Source: a virus | Taxonomy: Duplodnaviria; Heunggongvirae; Uroviricota; Caudoviricetes | DNA: 40,734 nucleotides | Direction: 5' to 3' (one strand) | Virus record (IMG/VR): IMGVR_UViG_2718217713_000001 | Coordinates: 1 to 40,734 of that record | Part shown: positions 1 through 40,734 of the stretch, one piece after another | Layout of the letters: each line of letters begins with the position of its first letter | Position numbering within the stretch: position 1 is the stretch's first letter | Position numbers and translations under genes: made by a program | The notes under the pieces: model-generated | What the model saw: the letters and a program-made list of their open reading frames with translations, nothing else | Databases searched by the model: none | Told to the model about the DNA's origin: nothing

Positions 1-270
<270 letters not shown>

Positions 271-5060: not shown

Positions 5061-5822
5061 TTACGAGGAAGCGTTAGCTATTTGAGCTTGTGTAAATTCG
5101 AAACCAGAATTTTGTAACCGTTGCACTAGACGAGGAACTGTTTCACGTACATGGTCGTTGAAATTCAGATACAAAATCCCGTTAGCATCAGAAGGCTGTT
5201 CTAGGTGCTGTTTCTGAAGGATTGCTACATTGCTGCGCCCTAAGGACGAAAGAAGCATACCCATCTCGAGTACAACGTTCTGTCTTGCGCGGGGTTGGAT
5301 TTCTGCTTCACCGGCGCGCTTTGAGTATCCCATATCATCAGGTGTCAAAAGAACAATCCCGAAACGGGTAGCAGTTTGTCCTTGCCCAATTTCACGTTCA
5401 AGCTCTTCAATAATGGTGAGTCCAGTCCCTCCCGTATTCTGCAAAATGAAATGGTCTGGTAATCCAAGTTTATGAAGGATTAGCTCAAGTTGCTCCTTTG
5501 CAGTATGGTCATGGCCGTGAACAATGAATATCTTTTTGGGGAGCTCAGATGGCTGTTCTACGGCTAGTGGTGTTGCCGTGGGCGGCGTTCCTAAATGGGT
5601 CATTATTGCAGTTTCAACATTGGGACGTTCTTGAGGGTTACCTTGAAACTGAATGGTCCGGGTGGTGTAAAGGTTAACAATTACGCCATTCGTTAAACGA
5701 TAGCAGTCACAAGTCTCACGCTGTTCGTGGGAAAAATTGGTGAACCCACACTCCCCCAAAAAGTCAGGAAAAGATTCTCTCGGGTATGGATAGGTGATCG
5801 GCATTTCAGTTAGTTCCTGCAT
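5061..5822 (-). CDS. TIR-like (COG4271/PF10137-type) domain protein with unknown N-terminal domain
   Basis: 253 aa; C-terminal about 150 aa carries motifs KIFIVHGHD, GIVLLTPDD, ARQNVVLEMG...LGR that I recall for the bacterial TIR-like nucleotide-binding family; N-terminal about 95 aa unrecognised; RBS AAAGGA upstream. Confidence 0.55.
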   Translation of the reverse strand: MQELTEMPITYPYPRESFPDFLGECGFTNFSHEQRETCDCYRLTNGVIVNLYTTRTIQFQGNPQERPNVETAIMTHLGTPPTATPLAVEQPSELPKKIFIVHGHDHTAKEQLELILHKLGLPDHFILQNTGGTGLTIIEELEREIGQGQTATRFGIVLLTPDDMGYSKRAGEAEIQPRARQNVVLEMGMLLSSLGRSNVAILQKQHLEQPSDANGILYLNFNDHVRETVPRLVQRLQNSGFEFTQAQIANASS

Positions 5823-37042: not shown

Positions 37043-37708
37043 ATGCATCGTATAGACACGAAAACCGCGCAGAAGGATAAGTTCGGCGCGGGTAAGAACG
37101 GTTTTACCCGTGGTAACCCCCAGACCGGCACGCCTGCCACCGATCTGGATGATGACTACTTTGACATGTTGCAGGAGGAGCTTTGCAGCGTTGTGGAGGC
37201 ATCCGGTGCCAGCCTGGAGAAGGGGCGGCATGACCAGCTGCTTACCGCGCTTCGTGCGCTGCTGTTAAGCCGCAAGAATCCGTTTGGCGATATCAAATCG
37301 GATGGCACGGTGAAAACAGCTCTCGAAAACCTTGGTTTGGGAGAAGCGGCAAAACTTGGCGCTGCTGTAGGGGTAACGGGTAATACCGGGAGAATATTGA
37401 TCCCGGCTTTAATTGGTGGGGTTGAACAAAATATCATTTTCCAGTGGGTCTCTGGATTTCTTTCCGATTCGACTGGAGTAGCAACCGTGACATTACCTAT
37501 GGCATTTCCTAACGCTCTGTTTCATGCCACTGCGATTGACTCAGGTGCTTCTGCTAGCTCGTGGAATGGATCGGCCGGCACAACGTGGGGCTTCGATATT
37601 GGTGGCTCTACCAGAACGACAGTCAAAGTTCGTGTTTTAAGAACAACTAATGGGACTTCATGGGCGGGTGCTTCAGCTGCCGGTTGTTTATTCGCAATAG
37701 GTTATTAA
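37043..37708 (+). CDS. Side tail fibre protein (constant N-terminus + invertible C-terminus)
   Basis: 221 aa; crossover site lies inside the gene at 37320..37345, so the C-terminal part is encoded within the invertible segment. Confidence 0.7.
37320..37345. other. Left DNA-invertase crossover site (hix/gix-like)
   Basis: CTCTCGAAAACC-TT-GGTTTGGGAGAA; resembles the Hin/Gin site GAAAACC..GGTTT; mirrored by the site at 38922..38947. Confidence 0.6.
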
Positions 37709-37709
37709 C

Positions 37710-38126
37710 ATGAAAACAAGATACTTTTATGACGCCGTTGATAACGGATTTTATATTGAACCTGAAAGCAGGTTTATTCCTGAATCAGCTATTGAAATCA
37801 GTGTTAACCTCTACAACCAATTTGCTGGTATTGCCTGGCCTGAAGGTAAAATGCTTGGTGCAGATAGCACTGGACTGCCCGCTTGGGTCGATGCGCCGCC
37901 TCCAACGCATGAAGAGCAAATAGCGGCGGCAGAACAATATCGCCAGCAACGGCTACAGCAGATTGACGAAGTAACCGCCGACTGGCGGGTTGAATTAATG
38001 CTCGGCGATATAAGTGACGAGGATAAAGCGAAATTGTCTGAGTGGATGGCGCATAAAAAAGCGGTGAAAGCCGTCGATACGTCAACGGCCCCTGATGTCA
38101 TCTGGCCTGAACAGCCGGAGGCGTAG
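37710..38126 (+). CDS. Tail fibre assembly protein
   Basis: 138 aa, follows tail fibre; shares the PAWVDAPPPTHEE motif with the inverted alternate copy. Confidence 0.75.
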   Translation: MKTRYFYDAVDNGFYIEPESRFIPESAIEISVNLYNQFAGIAWPEGKMLGADSTGLPAWVDAPPPTHEEQIAAAEQYRQQRLQQIDEVTADWRVELMLGDISDEDKAKLSEWMAHKKAVKAVDTSTAPDVIWPEQPEA

Positions 38127-38541
38127 GCCATTCAATATCTGGCGCACCGGAAGTATCAACCAGTTCCAGTGCGTCCAGATAATCCAGCCACAAATTATAT
38201 TGCGCCAGTTCGTCACCTTTCAGACGACCAATAGCGGCTTTACCGGGCCATTGTTTACTGTTCATGTATTCGTTGGCCTGGTTAATTAGTAGCTGTCTTT
38301 CTGATTCAGTAATTTCAATAAGCTCTTCATGCGTGGGTGGAGGAATATCAGCCCACGCAGGCAGCGCATCATCTCCGGCAATACGGACTTTTCCTTGTGG
38401 CGGTTCAGCCATAAACTCACTGACAATATTTTGATTCACTTCTTTCACATCTGATAAATCCCATCCCTCTGATTTATATTTATCAATCATATCCACAGGG
38501 AAAAAAGCATTATGTCTGGCACTATAAACATATTTGTTCAT
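38098..38541 (-). CDS. Alternate tail fibre assembly protein (inverted orientation)
   Basis: ORF track 38098..38583; ATG at 38541 after AGGGTGA; PAWADIPPPTHEE motif. Confidence 0.7.
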   Translation of the reverse strand: MNKYVYSARHNAFFPVDMIDKYKSEGWDLSDVKEVNQNIVSEFMAEPPQGKVRIAGDDALPAWADIPPPTHEELIEITESERQLLINQANEYMNSKQWPGKAAIGRLKGDELAQYNLWLDYLDALELVDTSGAPDIEWPTPPAVQAR

Positions 38542-38561
38542 ATAAATCACCCTGAATAAAA

Positions 38562-38933
38562 TTACTCGCCAACAGCCCACCAACAGTAATTCATGGTAAC
38601 AGTTGGACTTGTCGAGGTTGTTCTAAAGGCAGAATAAAACCCTGTTAACCCTGGCTCTTCAGTTGTCATCATAAAACCACGACCACTCCCGGCAGTTGAA
38701 CCACCATCACCAGAATGTGAAAGCAAGGCAATATCAGCTTTTTTAGGGAAAGGTATATTAAATTCTACCCGTAGTGTCTGACTCGCAAGCGTAGGAGACA
38801 CACGCCCACGACCATATTGCAGGATTTTCCCGTTGGGTAATTTCATCCATCCATCACCACTGGCAAAAGAGGCCATGTCCGGTATCTGATTTTCCCCTGT
38901 TCCCACATTTCGTTTCGCCGCTTCTCCCAAACC
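38562..38933 (-). CDS. Alternate tail-fibre C-terminal segment (start-less, expressed only after inversion)
   Basis: Minus-strand reading frame open from the right crossover site; encodes LGEAAK... matching the junction of the plus-strand fibre gene. Confidence 0.55.
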
Positions 38934-38947
38934 AACGTTTATGAAAA
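38922..38947. other. Right DNA-invertase crossover site (inverted copy)
   Basis: TTCTCCCAAACC-AA-CGTTTATGAAAA; left half is the reverse complement of the right half of the 37320..37345 site. Confidence 0.6.
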
Positions 38948-39001
38948 TGCAGAAATAACGAGCAAATGGCATCATTCCTGCTTTTGTCAGGGAGATCTAC
39001 C

Positions 39002-39316
39002 ATGCTTATTGGCTATGTACGTGTGTCAACAAATGACCAGAACACCGATCTGCAACGTAATGCACTGAACTGCGCGGGATGTGAGCGGATTTTTGAGGAT
39101 ACAATCAGTGGCACTAAGTCCGACAGACCAGGGCTGAAAAAACTGCTCAGGACATTATCGGCAGGTGACACTCTGGTTGTCTGGAAGCTGGATCGGCTGG
39201 GGCGCAGTATGCGGCATCTTGTCGTGCTGGTGGAGGAGTTGCGCGAACAAGGTGTTAACTTTAGTAGTTATGTTATTACAGGTGGGGGATTTCTCCCCCT
39301 TATGCAGATTTTCTAG
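39002..39316 (+). pseudogene. pin: Serine DNA invertase Pin/Gin/Hin family, 3'-truncated after about codon 86
   Basis: MLIGYVRVSTNDQNTDLQRNAL...GDTLVVWKLDRLGRSM matches the invertase N-terminus; similarity stops after ...GVNF and the frame ends 18 codons later; a full invertase is about 185-190 aa. Confidence 0.7.
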
Positions 39317-39320
39317 TTAA

Positions 39321-40166
39321 CTATTGGCGAAGTGGCCATATTTTTCTGTTTTTTAAAAAACTATCTCCAACTATATAACTGCAACAATGTTCACTAAGGC
39401 CATAAAAACTAATTATTCCATATTTATGAGAAGCTATATCAGACAGTTCTGCTAATACTGTGGCAAGCCAACGAGCGATGCTAAGAGAATAGAATCTTCC
39501 CCATTTTTGAACAATGGTATTTTGTCCAGTACGGATGGAGGCTGATATAAGGTCTTGCATCATGTTGGTACTTTCATTCATATACATGATCGTTGTATAC
39601 GGCGAAAGAGTGGCATTGATAAACCTAGCATTTTCTTCAACACGTCTTTGTTCAACTGTATAATAATAATGTTTTTCAAGGATACTCTCGGCTACTTCTC
39701 CCCACCATTTATTAATAGGTTCATTATTGGTTAAATTGGGGCTGCTTAATGAAGAGAAATTTGCGTAACGTCCCCGTCGGGCATCAGCAAAGGAATCTAA
39801 ACATTCAAGTATTTTGTAGGTGATTTTATGTGTAGGACGTGAATATCTCAGAGATAGTTGCATTTTTTTAGAAATACTATCAACCTCGTTGGTTAATTCA
39901 ATGAGCTTATGTCCAAATTTTCTTACAATATTCTCGTCAGGCATTTTTCCTTTATGTTCAATGGCATAGTGTGCAACAAGTATTAGTTTAGCAAGTCTCT
40001 CAAAACCTACAGAAAGCCCAAAAAATGCAGTGTAATACTCACCTATTTTGTCTGCATAATTGGCTTTACCTATGGCTGTTGCCCCAGAACCAATGAGCTG
40101 TGTAACTAAAGATGCTTCTCGGCCCAGAGCGTGCCATGCTGGAATATCCCAGGGATTTTTATTCAC
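39321..40166 (-). CDS. AT-rich hypothetical protein (cargo downstream of truncated pin)
   Basis: 281-aa ORF, GTG start with AAAGGA upstream; low GC; no motif firmly recognised (one R-x5-H stretch, RYSRPTH). Confidence 0.5.
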   Translation of the reverse strand: MNKNPWDIPAWHALGREASLVTQLIGSGATAIGKANYADKIGEYYTAFFGLSVGFERLAKLILVAHYAIEHKGKMPDENIVRKFGHKLIELTNEVDSISKKMQLSLRYSRPTHKITYKILECLDSFADARRGRYANFSSLSSPNLTNNEPINKWWGEVAESILEKHYYYTVEQRRVEENARFINATLSPYTTIMYMNESTNMMQDLISASIRTGQNTIVQKWGRFYSLSIARWLATVLAELSDIASHKYGIISFYGLSEHCCSYIVGDSFLKNRKIWPLRQ

Positions 40167-40293
40167 TTTATTATTTTCCTTTGCTCATAAATTTAAATTG
40201 TTTGAGTATCTCATAAAATATAAGGAGGTGGTTAAGGTTGTTGATCGCATATAATAGCTATTGAAAGTCAAGAACTCGGTTTTATGTTCTACC

Positions 40294-40334
40294 ACTAATT
40301 AATATATTGTGAATCTTACAATATATTAATTAGT
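40294..40334. repeat. Perfect 17-bp inverted repeat with 7-nt spacer
   Basis: ACTAATTAATATATTGT-gaatctt-ACAATATATTAATTAGT read directly. Confidence 0.9.
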
Positions 40335-40467
40335 ATGATCAAACCAGCCATCAACTGATTCCTTGTATCTTTCAGAGTCTCCAGAATAAAAGCCTTAACG
40401 AATTCCTTATTTGTGAGTGCCTTACAAAAAGCCCATTGTTGCAGGGAACGAGTATAAAACTCGTCAG

Positions 40468-40734
40468 CTACTGGAGAAGGCTACCTGAACTTCGATCTAT
40501 TCCTGCATCCATATAGTTGATGGTCTTCTGGAGCTCTTCGATTAGGGCAACAGCTTTTGCTCGAGAAATGCATATTAGGTGATCCGGAAATTCTTGTAAG
40601 GGCCAGTTTGGTATACAGGCCATGTTATCAGTGAAGGATGCAGACAAGTAAACTTCATTGGTAACCAGAGAATAGCTTACCTCAAAATTGGTGAGCTCCG
40701 GCAAACTGCTAACGTTTGACTCTTTTCTGCGCAT
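40468..40734 (-). CDS. Hypothetical protein (88 aa; start codon at the window edge)
   Basis: Minus-strand ORF whose ATG is the last three bases of the window; true start could lie further upstream outside the window. Confidence 0.35.
   Translation of the reverse strand: MRRKESNVSSLPELTNFEVSYSLVTNEVYLSASFTDNMACIPNWPLQEFPDHLICISRAKAVALIEELQKTINYMDAGIDRSSGSLLQ

What the first reader, a model, noticed from the sequence alone, without database searches (positions are those of the whole stretch)
39002..40734. AT-rich cargo (281-aa and 88-aa proteins) replacing the 3' half of pin at the prophage tail-fibre end
The invertase gene keeps only about 86 N-terminal codons; from about 39260 the DNA becomes AT-rich and encodes two minus-strand proteins with no recognisable family (39321..40166 and 40468..40734). 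In e14-type prophages the locus just beyond pin carries a defence gene (mcrA), so this is a defence/anti-defence hotspot position. An acquired two-gene module of unknown function here is a plausible novel defence or toxin-antitoxin-like system.
Basis: partly seen in the sequence, partly recalled or inferred. Interest (0 to 1): 0.65.

Follow-up and report, generated by a model that had tools for sequence, protein, structure and literature searches.

The report
Orphan HEPN-like defence gene at prophage end
A 1.2-kb AT-rich cassette that replaced the end of a prophage's invertase gene carries one gene from a widespread, unnamed protein family that turns up again and again in known anti-phage hotspots, so it is a good single-gene candidate for a new phage-defence protein, not the two-gene module first proposed.

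Summary

The two ORFs are not a unit. Comparison with sister prophages that keep an intact pinE shows the acquired piece is window 39269-40452. It holds only the 281-aa gene and its upstream region. The 88-aa ORF belongs to the conserved right arm of the prophage, next to attR in yfhL. It occurs in about three times as many E. coli genomes, and in Salmonella prophages without the 281-aa gene.

The 281-aa protein has no Pfam, NCBIfam or PADLOC match, but it belongs to a large family spread across at least eight phyla. Relatives sit between hsdS and hsdR of type I R-M operons, in both classic P2 cargo slots, directly after Gabija, near Thoeris and in a Vibrio cassette array.

Best reading: a single-gene, probably abortive-infection defence protein, possibly an RNase. 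This is untested. Moderately interesting.

The parts
214..231 (.). attL core (TTCACACATATCACAATT) inside the 5' end of yfhL. The matching attR core lies 206-223 bp beyond the window end (L001 14041-14058). Both the cargo gene and the 88-aa ORF therefore lie inside the att-delimited prophage.
   Evidence: The only exact repeat of 11 nt or more shared by the left end and the right flank. The original yfhL start codon and N-terminal codons sit just outside attR.
39002..39268 (+). pin' : the 5' 89 codons of a Pin/Gin-type serine invertase gene. The C-terminal half, including the DNA-binding domain, is lost, so the tail-fibre inversion switch upstream (about 37043-38975) is frozen.
   Evidence: PF00239 N-terminal domain only. 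RefSeq pseudogene. Homology to intact pinE ends at 39268.
39269..40452 (.). 1184-bp AT-rich replacement cassette. It is the only DNA that differs from sister prophages, which carry the pinE 3' half plus a 215-aa gene at the same place.
   Evidence: blastn of L001 against L019: homology stops at 39268 and resumes at 40453. GC is 0.32-0.39. The same junctions are present in all 44 E. coli genomes that carry it, on at least two different prophage backbones.
39284..39299 (.). GC-rich hairpin (GGGGGA-TTTC-TCCCCC), 21 nt beyond the stop codon of the 281-aa gene. Possible terminator at the cassette edge.
   Evidence: Read directly from the sequence. It was not called by the strict terminator scan.
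39321..40166 (-). Gene for the 281-aa all-alpha protein. It has a HEPN-like predicted fold and belongs to an unnamed family. This is the candidate single-gene defence protein.
40167..40452 (-). Upstream non-coding part of the cassette, holding the ribosome-binding site and sigma-70-like promoter candidates for the 281-aa gene.
   Evidence: Promoter-like sites at 40244-40217 and 40197-40170 on the minus strand; their number is not above the shuffle expectation. The ribosome-binding-site region is conserved in enterobacterial homologues.
40294..40334 (.). Perfect 17-bp inverted repeat with a 7-nt spacer, 127 bp upstream of the 281-aa start. Function unknown; possibly an operator or an RNA hairpin.
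   Evidence: The intergenic RNA folds with z = -3.2. The repeat is not conserved upstream of homologues in other genera. No Rfam family matches.
40468..40734 (-). 88-aa ORF (phrog_17793, unknown function). A real gene, but part of the conserved attR-proximal arm of this prophage group and NOT part of the cassette.

Best explanation
**What is there.** The window is a prophage of E. coli C10 integrated into the 5' end of yfhL. At its right end, one illegitimate recombination replaced the 3' half of pin and the previous cargo gene with a 1184-bp AT-rich cassette (39269-40452). The cassette carries a single self-contained gene with its own upstream region.

**What the gene most likely is.** The 281-aa product most likely acts alone as an anti-phage defence protein. 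It belongs to a horizontally mobile family that repeatedly lands in defence hotspots.

**How it most likely works (inferred).**
- Its N-terminal ~170 residues form a HEPN-like helical bundle.
- The family-invariant residues are E56 and K60 on helix 2, H86 (preceded by a basic residue 3-4 positions earlier), R133-Y134-x-N136 and W154.
- The protein is made in the lysogen and stays latent, probably as a dimer.
- On infection by another phage it would be triggered to cut RNA (tRNA, rRNA or mRNA). That stops translation and aborts the infection.
- In relatives sitting between hsdS and hsdR it would serve as a back-up to the type I restriction enzyme, as PrrC does.

**Shown:** cassette boundaries, single-gene nature, family breadth, purifying selection, hotspot contexts and fold resemblance.

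**Inferred:** defence function, expression in the lysogen, RNase chemistry, trigger and dimerisation.
For: **Cassette anatomy**
- att cores place the whole region inside the prophage.
- Homology to intact-pinE sister prophages breaks at 39268 and resumes at 40453.
- In those sister prophages the slot holds a different 215-aa gene. In e14 it holds mcrA.

**Family**
- 485 hits, 55-74% identical, of constant length 279-283 aa.
- 937 clusters at 50% identity.
- 58 species-representative loci spanning Proteobacteria, Mycobacterium, Chloroflexota, Acidobacteriota, Nitrospinota, Planctomycetota and others.
- Under purifying selection.
- No conserved partner gene in any context.

**Contexts of relatives**
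- Between hsdS and hsdR with overlapping or adjacent reading frames. The same order is found in 10 of 58 representative genomes, and 12 of 58 have hsd genes alongside.
- Directly after hsdR in two other type I systems.
- In a P2-like prophage between tail-fibre assembly G and sheath FI, the fun(Z) slot.
- In a P2-like prophage between gpA and the portal gene, the tin/old slot, once beside a PvuII-type R-M.
- Directly after Gabija.
- 3.5 kb from Thoeris.
- In a Vibrio cholerae co-oriented cassette array next to SieB and a RES-Xre toxin-antitoxin pair.
- At a Klebsiella prophage end.

**Fold**
- The AF2 model has pLDDT 81.
- The only recurrent weak profile hits of distant members are HEPN models: Pfam HEPN_AbiV in 3 of 101 (best E 0.0022) and PADLOC CARF_HEPN_mCpol in 3 of 101.

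**Precedents from the literature**
- Anantharaman et al. 2013 (PMC3710099) describe HEPN families with an acidic residue on helix 2 and an alternative conserved His, and their frequent linkage to R-M operons.
- HepS is a single-gene, prophage-encoded HEPN anticodon nuclease (PMC13043305).
Against: - **No canonical HEPN motif.** No Rx4-6H motif is conserved anywhere in the family. The nearest is [RK]-x3-4-H86.
- **No profile match.** No HEPN profile is matched at curated thresholds, and the profile search against PDB sequences found nothing.
- **Active site not mapped.** I could not superpose the models, so placing E56, H86 and R133 on a HEPN active site is inference only.
- **C-terminal 110 residues have no assigned fold.**
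- **Neutral contexts exist.** Three contexts are solitary among housekeeping or metabolic genes.
- **Rare in E. coli and in viral contigs.** Only 44 of 5426 E. coli genomes and 8 IMG/VR contigs carry it.
- **No experimental data exist.**
Confidence: 0.55

Rival explanations
1. One reading: the 281-aa and 88-aa genes form one acquired two-gene defence or toxin-antitoxin-like operon.
For: They are adjacent, on the same strand, both AT-rich and both of unknown function. Both lie between pin and attR.
Against: - The acquired DNA ends at 40452, 15 bp short of the 88-aa ORF.
- The 88-aa arm is present in 122-159 E. coli genomes, the 281-aa gene in 44.
- Salmonella prophages carry the 88-aa gene with an acyltransferase instead.
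- No homologue of the 281-aa protein outside E. coli has the 88-aa neighbour.
- The genes are separated by a 301-bp gap that contains a strong hairpin.
Confidence: 0.04
2. The 281-aa protein is the toxin of a type III-like (protein-RNA) toxin-antitoxin pair, as reported for lactococcal AbiV/abiV2. The structured upstream RNA, including the 17-bp inverted repeat, would act as its inhibitor.
For: - AbiV is among the structural hits with the highest identity and is the only recurrent Pfam hit.
- AbiV needs an upstream non-coding RNA with a small hairpin (bioRxiv 10.1101/2024.05.05.592566).
- The cassette carries 286 bp of upstream DNA with a perfect 17-bp inverted repeat, and that RNA folds better than shuffled controls (z = -3.2).
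Against: - The inverted repeat and the long leader are not conserved upstream of homologues.
- In Enterobacter the gene starts 85 bp after hsdR. In R-M-embedded copies it overlaps hsdS.
- No Rfam match.
- The repeat is almost pure A/T and could equally be a protein operator.
Confidence: 0.08
3. The protein is not an immune effector but an accessory, regulatory or anti-restriction factor for type I R-M enzymes. For example it could modulate HsdR activity or protect the element's own DNA. A prophage would carry it for counter-defence.
For: - Tight operonic placement between hsdS and hsdR in 10 of 58 representative genomes, and directly after hsdR in two more.
- The canonical catalytic motif is absent.
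Against: - Most copies (46 of 58 representatives) have no hsd gene nearby.
- Copies in the P2 tin/old and fun(Z) slots, after Gabija and in an integron-like array fit a self-sufficient defence gene better.
- An anti-restriction gene inside a restriction operon would be self-defeating.
- The invariant E/K/H/R/Y set points to catalysis or specific ligand binding.
Confidence: 0.12
4. It is a mobile 'passenger' gene with a function unrelated to phage defence, or a selfish addiction element. Its hotspot locations would simply reflect where foreign DNA is tolerated.
For: Solitary copies lie among housekeeping or metabolic genes, next to a tRNA or an IS element. There is no experimental evidence and no match to any defence HMM.
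Against: - Placement inside operons of a defence system (hsdS-X-hsdR), with overlapping or adjacent frames, is hard to explain by tolerance alone.
- Payne et al. [quoted passage not shown]
- Strong purifying selection and 50-70% identity across phyla indicate a selected molecular function.
Confidence: 0.2

Closest known systems
HepS (Gifsy-1 prophage HEPN anticodon nuclease, Salmonella; PMC13043305)
   Different: HepS has a canonical RX4-6H motif (R100/H105), which this family lacks. There is no detectable sequence similarity. The trigger and the target of the 281-aa protein are unknown.
AbiV (Lactococcus; Pfam PF18728 HEPN_AbiV; PDB 9bj5)
   Different: - AbiV is about 200 aa and uses R91/H97.
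- The 281-aa family has an extra ~110-residue C-terminal region and no Rx4-6H motif.
- The hits are far below Pfam's threshold.
- AbiV's upstream RNA partner has no conserved counterpart here.
PrrC / RloC-type anticodon nucleases embedded in type I R-M operons
   Same: Relatives occupy the same hsdS-X-hsdR position, with overlapping or adjacent frames. PrrC's nuclease domain is a HEPN domain (PMC3710099). The logic would be a second line of defence when restriction is blocked.
   Different: PrrC has an N-terminal ABC-type ATPase domain. The 281-aa protein matches no NTPase or any other Pfam family. The copy in this window is not next to any R-M system.
Cargo of the pin-attR slot and of P2 moron slots: McrA (e14), Fun(Z), Tin and Old (P2)
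   Same: Same positions in the phage genome: after pin at the prophage end, between G and FI, and between A and the portal gene. These slots hold proven exclusion or defence genes.
   Different: The likeness is positional only. There is no sequence or fold relationship to McrA (an HNH type IV restriction enzyme), Fun(Z), Tin or Old.

Membership tests
HEPN superfamily | Four-helix up-down bundle fold superposable on solved HEPN domains | tested here: inconclusive
HEPN superfamily | Conserved Rx4-6H catalytic motif | tested here: not met
   Across 101 diverse members the invariant residues are E56, K60, H86, Y134 and W154. R57, R133 and N136 are near-invariant. The closest pattern is [RK]-x3-4-H86, and no His follows R133. 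Variant HEPN families with a displaced His are described (PMC3710099), so this lowers membership but does not exclude it.
HEPN superfamily | Significant match to a HEPN sequence profile | tested here: not met
   The query has no Pfam, NCBIfam or PADLOC hit. Only sub-threshold recurrent hits of distant members were seen: HEPN_AbiV in 3 of 101 (E 0.0022 or worse) and CARF_HEPN_mCpol in 3 of 101. The profile against PDB sequences gave nothing.
HEPN superfamily | Metal-independent RNase activity from a composite dimer active site | not testable with these tools
   Needs biochemistry or a multimer structure.
AbiV system (type III TA-like) | Upstream non-coding RNA partner (abiV2) required with the HEPN protein | tested here: not met
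   An upstream structured region with a 17-bp inverted repeat exists in E. coli. It is absent upstream of homologues in Enterobacter, Klebsiella, Motiliproteus and Acidibrevibacterium and in R-M-embedded copies.
PrrC-type R-M-linked anticodon nuclease | Gene embedded between hsdS and hsdR of a type I R-M operon | tested here: not met
   Not met for the copy in this window, which lies in a prophage with no hsd genes. Met for relatives: L025 and 10 of 58 representative loci.
PrrC-type R-M-linked anticodon nuclease | N-terminal ABC-ATPase-like regulatory domain | tested here: not met
   The protein is 281 aa with no NTPase family match. The model is all-alpha with one small hairpin.
   Each gene occurs without the other (and the contexts). 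The cassette boundary falls between them.
Pin/Gin serine DNA invertase (for pin') | Complete catalytic domain plus C-terminal helix-turn-helix DNA-binding domain | tested here: not met
   Only profile positions 2-98 of 145 of the Resolvase domain remain. An intact PinE is 184 aa. RefSeq marks the gene as a pseudogene.
Any defence system or candidate in PADLOC-DB v2.0.0 (includes HEC and PDC candidates) | Match to a PADLOC HMM | tested here: not met
   The query gives no hit at E<=1. Among 101 family members only scattered hits at E>=0.003 appear.

The most novel reading that the evidence does not exclude
The ~280-aa family is a previously unnamed, very widespread single-protein immune effector with a non-canonical HEPN-like active site (E56/K60/H86/R133-Y134). 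It would work both as a built-in guard of type I restriction enzymes, in the PrrC position but without an ATPase domain, and as a free-standing prophage or integron cassette. That would define a new defence system and a new catalytic variant of the HEPN fold.
Probability: 0.4. Interest if true: 0.65.

Novelty: new variant of a known kind. Interest (0 to 1): 0.52.

Why it matters
If the prediction holds, this is an unnamed anti-phage gene family missing from Pfam, NCBIfam and PADLOC. It is present in at least eight bacterial phyla and small enough (0.85 kb) to test directly.

It occurs in several independent defence hotspots: the hsdS-hsdR gap, both P2 cargo slots, downstream of Gabija, an integron-like array and the pin-attR slot. 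This gives unusually convergent guilt-by-association for a single gene. It also offers natural paired contexts, R-M-embedded and solitary, for asking how such effectors are kept silent and what triggers them.

The missing Rx4-6H motif would make it informative about how far the HEPN active site can vary.

For this window specifically, the result corrects the picture: the acquisition is one gene, and it froze the prophage's tail-fibre switch by truncating pin.

Tried and rejected
- **Sequence searches on the 281-aa protein.** Pfam, PHROGs, NCBIfam, PADLOC and PDB sequences gave nothing. A profile of 101 members against PDB sequences gave only chance hits.
- **Foldseek.** Against the PDB there was no hit at E<=0.001. 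The afdb50 library was unavailable.
- **Locating the HEPN_AbiV hits.** I tried to find which family members produce the weak hits, to map the aligned region. One hit is in the second half of the set and two are in the first half. The aligned segment is therefore unknown.
- **Conserved upstream RNA or operator.** The 17-bp inverted repeat is specific to the E. coli cassette. There is no Rfam family.
- **Literature.** RefSeq accessions WP_001039127 and WP_073488341 appear in no held paper. The guilt-by-embedding preprint lists candidates that are in PADLOC, and this family does not match them.
- **Donor of the cassette.** No DNA-level source was found. The only plasmid hit is a 76%-identical solitary copy in Enterobacter mori.
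- **Two-gene operon idea.** Rejected; see the rival explanations.
- **Longer 113-145-aa versions of the small ORF.** Rejected as upstream-start artefacts, because their N-terminal extensions are not conserved.
Full report
**Where the window comes from**

The window is identical to E. coli strain C10 (NZ_CP010132.1). Position 1 is the end of yfhL, and the right end lies about 400 bp short of yfhH.

An 18-bp exact repeat, TTCACACATATCACAATT, is found at window 214-231, inside the 5' end of yfhL. It is found again 206 bp beyond the window end (L001 14041-14058), where the original yfhL start codons follow. These are the att cores of a roughly 40.7-kb prophage. The integrase is at the left end. 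The layout ymfQ - tail fibre - tail-fibre assembly (invertible segment) - pin is at the right end. Everything in the finding therefore lies inside the prophage, between the tail-fibre switch and attR.

**Checking the observation**

- Window 39002-39316 translates to a protein whose first 89 residues match only the N-terminal part of the Resolvase domain (PF00239, E 1.2e-30, profile positions 2-98 of 145).
- RefSeq marks 39002-39268 as a recombinase pseudogene lacking its C-terminus.
- GC falls from 0.50-0.61 to 0.32-0.39 from about 39250 onwards.
- The two minus-strand ORFs exist at 39321-40166 (281 aa, GTG start) and 40468-40734 (88 aa; the open frame reaches only 92 aa in the source genome).
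- Both are genuine genes. The 281-aa gene shows mostly synonymous or third-position change between E. coli copies and against Enterobacter. The 88-aa gene shows the same between E. coli and Salmonella.

**What was actually acquired**

Sister prophages integrated at the same yfhL site carry an intact 184-aa pinE, followed by a 215-aa minus-strand gene and then the same right arm up to yfhH. The 215-aa protein has a predicted N-terminal membrane helix and a coiled-coil-like remainder. Examples are ETEC-2264, UTAK-2 and Rb-50.

Aligning C10 with ETEC-2264, homology stops at window 39268 and resumes at 40453. The acquired piece is therefore 39269-40452, or 1184 bp. It contains:

- a GC-rich hairpin (39284-39299);
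- the 281-aa gene;
- 286 bp of upstream DNA with promoter-like sites;
- a perfect 17-bp inverted repeat at 40294-40334.

The 88-aa ORF begins 15 bp beyond the right junction and belongs to the conserved arm. The 281-aa gene is in 44 of 5426 complete E. coli genomes, always in single copy. The arm with the 88-aa ORF is in 122-159 genomes.

The same pin'-cassette junctions occur on at least two different prophage backbones: a Mu-like tail module in C10 and a DUF3383-type tail in WP3-W18. The event is therefore old and has spread by recombination among yfhL prophages.

In Salmonella and Citrobacter the 88-aa family (phrog_17793) sits at prophage ends next to an acyltransferase and tail-fibre genes, without the 281-aa gene. 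The two genes are independent, and the 'two-gene module' reading is not supported.

The slot itself is a cargo hotspot. In e14, with the same ymfQ-stf-tfa-tfa-stf-pinE layout, it holds the restriction enzyme gene mcrA.

**The 281-aa family**

The protein has no Pfam, PHROG, NCBIfam, PADLOC or PDB-sequence match. It nevertheless has 485 homologues in the 90%-clustered collection. The best 120 are 55-98% identical (apart from the near-identical E. coli cluster, 55-74%), and most are 279-283 aa long. There are 937 clusters at 50% identity.

Species-representative genomes with a copy include Gamma-, Alpha- and Betaproteobacteria, Mycobacterium, Allokutzneria, Chloroflexota, Acidobacteriota, Nitrospinota, Fibrobacteraceae, Gemmatimonadota and Planctomycetota. 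This sporadic distribution with high identity, together with an AT-rich gene in enteric hosts, indicates horizontal spread.

Across 101 diverse members the conserved residues are as follows:

- invariant: E56, K60, H86, Y134 and W154;
- at least 90% conserved: E17, R57, R133, N136, P150, E198, R232 and D268.

The recurring motifs are LSxGxER..KL, [RK]-x3-4-H86, R133-Y-[AY]-N136 and P150...W154, plus a commonly conserved His at position 166.

**Genomic contexts**

No partner gene is conserved. The annotated contexts are:

| Context | Organism or locus |
|---|---|
| Between hsdS and hsdR, start overlapping the hsdS stop, hsdR 13 nt downstream | L025 (metagenome) |
| Directly after hsdR | Enterobacter ludwigii (integrase island with Vsr, HNH, DUF4917) |
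| Directly after hsdR | Pseudidiomarina |
| P2-like prophage, between gpA and portal (tin/old region; from my knowledge of P2), once beside a PvuII-type R-M | Serratia marcescens |
| Directly after Gabija (GajA/GajB) | Pectobacterium |
| 3.5 kb from a Thoeris pair | Chromohalobacter |
| Co-oriented small-cassette array with SieB and a RES-Xre toxin-antitoxin pair | Vibrio cholerae |
| Prophage end beside umuDC | Klebsiella variicola |
| Solitary among housekeeping or metabolic genes | Motiliproteus, Acidibrevibacterium, an Enterobacter mori plasmid |

I ran tblastn with three sets of HsdM, HsdS and HsdR proteins against the 58 representative loci. Twelve loci have hsd genes alongside. Ten of them show the order hsdM-hsdS-gene-hsdR on one strand. 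Many of these share a related R-M system, so they are not all independent events.

This pattern is the 'guilt-by-embedding' signature that Payne et al. used to find and validate new defences (bioRxiv 10.1101/2024.01.29.577857). The present family matches none of the PADLOC models, which include their candidates.

**Structure**

With a 33-sequence alignment, AlphaFold2 gave an all-alpha model with mean pLDDT 81 and pTM 0.83. The only low-confidence segment is residues 134-148.

- Foldseek against the PDB found nothing.
- Among distant family members, the only profile families hit more than twice are HEPN_AbiV in Pfam (3 of 101, best E 0.0022) and CARF_HEPN_mCpol in PADLOC (3 of 101).

The canonical Rx4-6H motif is absent. 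Anantharaman et al. (PMC3710099) describe HEPN families, AbiV and AF0298 among them, with a conserved acidic residue on helix 2 and an alternative conserved His outside the usual motif. They also describe the frequent linkage of HEPN genes to R-M operons. E56 and H86 would fit that description, but I could not superpose structures to test it. I therefore call the protein HEPN-like and leave membership inconclusive.

**Most likely mechanism**

The cassette is a typical moron: one gene with its own upstream region, inserted at a prophage end. The most likely role is a single-protein defence that protects the lysogen from other phages. By analogy with HepS (PMC13043305), AbiV and PrrC, the protein would stay latent, be activated by a phage cue and cut RNA to abort infection. 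In R-M-embedded relatives it would back up the restriction enzyme.

My estimates are about 0.7 that the gene is defence-related and about 0.55 for the overall explanation as stated. I put about 0.35 on RNase chemistry specifically.

Rival explanations, each with what would refute it, are listed separately in this report:

- an R-M accessory or anti-restriction factor;
- an AbiV-like protein-RNA pair that uses the upstream hairpin (the hairpin is not conserved);
- a non-defence passenger gene;
- the two-gene module.

**Novelty and verdict**

What is there is one gene from a large, unnamed family with strong, convergent defence-context evidence and a HEPN-like predicted fold that lacks the canonical motif. 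This is a new family, and probably an active-site variant, within a known kind: single-gene, HEPN-type abortive-infection defences. It is not a categorically new system.

It is a good and cheap candidate for experimental testing. Hundreds of comparable candidates exist, so interest is moderate.

Noticed in passing
window 1-261 (yfhL, minus strand) and 214-231; L001 14041-14090: The prophage integrates inside the 5' end of the ferredoxin gene yfhL and supplies a replacement start and N-terminal codons ([16 protein letters not shown]... in place of [16 protein letters not shown]...). The host gene therefore stays intact. The att core is 18 bp.
   Followed up: partly
L019 5310-5957 (minus strand); also L020 and L021: Sister yfhL prophages with an intact pinE carry a different cargo gene in the same slot. 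It encodes a 215-aa protein (WP_001288820.1) with a predicted N-terminal membrane helix and a long coiled-coil-like remainder, and it has no Pfam family. It could be another exclusion or abortive-infection candidate.
   Followed up: partly
window 40468-40734 (minus strand); L016/L017 7001-7267: The 88-aa ORF (phrog_17793) is a conserved gene under purifying selection. It is confined to E. coli, Salmonella and Citrobacter prophage ends, always as the last gene before the host junction and reading inward. Its function is unknown. Longer 113-145-aa gene calls in databases look like start-codon artefacts.
   Followed up: partly
window 40294-40334: A perfect 17-bp, almost pure A/T inverted repeat (ACTAATTAATATATTGT / ACAATATATTAATTAGT, 7-nt spacer) lies 127 bp upstream of the 281-aa gene. 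It is unique to the E. coli cassette. It could be an operator, a terminator for the small ORF or an RNA element; this is unresolved.
   Followed up: partly
window about 37043-38975: The Pin-type invertible tail-fibre segment, with two opposed sets of gp53-like fibre tips and assembly genes, is locked in one orientation because pin is truncated. Lysogens with the cassette have lost host-range switching unless another invertase acts in trans.
   Followed up: no
window 5061-5822 (minus strand): RefSeq annotates a 253-aa TIR-domain protein in the early region of the same prophage, beside a DNA polymerase / DUF2800 / DUF2815 / Nmad5 / VRR-NUC / helicase cluster. It may be a second defence or counter-defence gene on this phage.
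   Followed up: no
L001 compared with L002: Two unrelated tail and baseplate modules (Mu-like with a DNA circularisation protein, and DUF3383/DUF3277-type) share the same right end at 96.7% identity: fibre assembly genes, pin', the cassette, the 88-aa ORF and attR. This is a clear case of mosaic exchange around a fixed att-proximal arm.
   Followed up: partly
L018 (ON470579.1, phage vB_EcoM-606R2) 1-4300: Three GenBank 'complete phage genomes' that carry the cassette also include the host genes tadA, pgpC and yfhH at one end. These records appear to extend past attR into chromosomal DNA.
   Followed up: no
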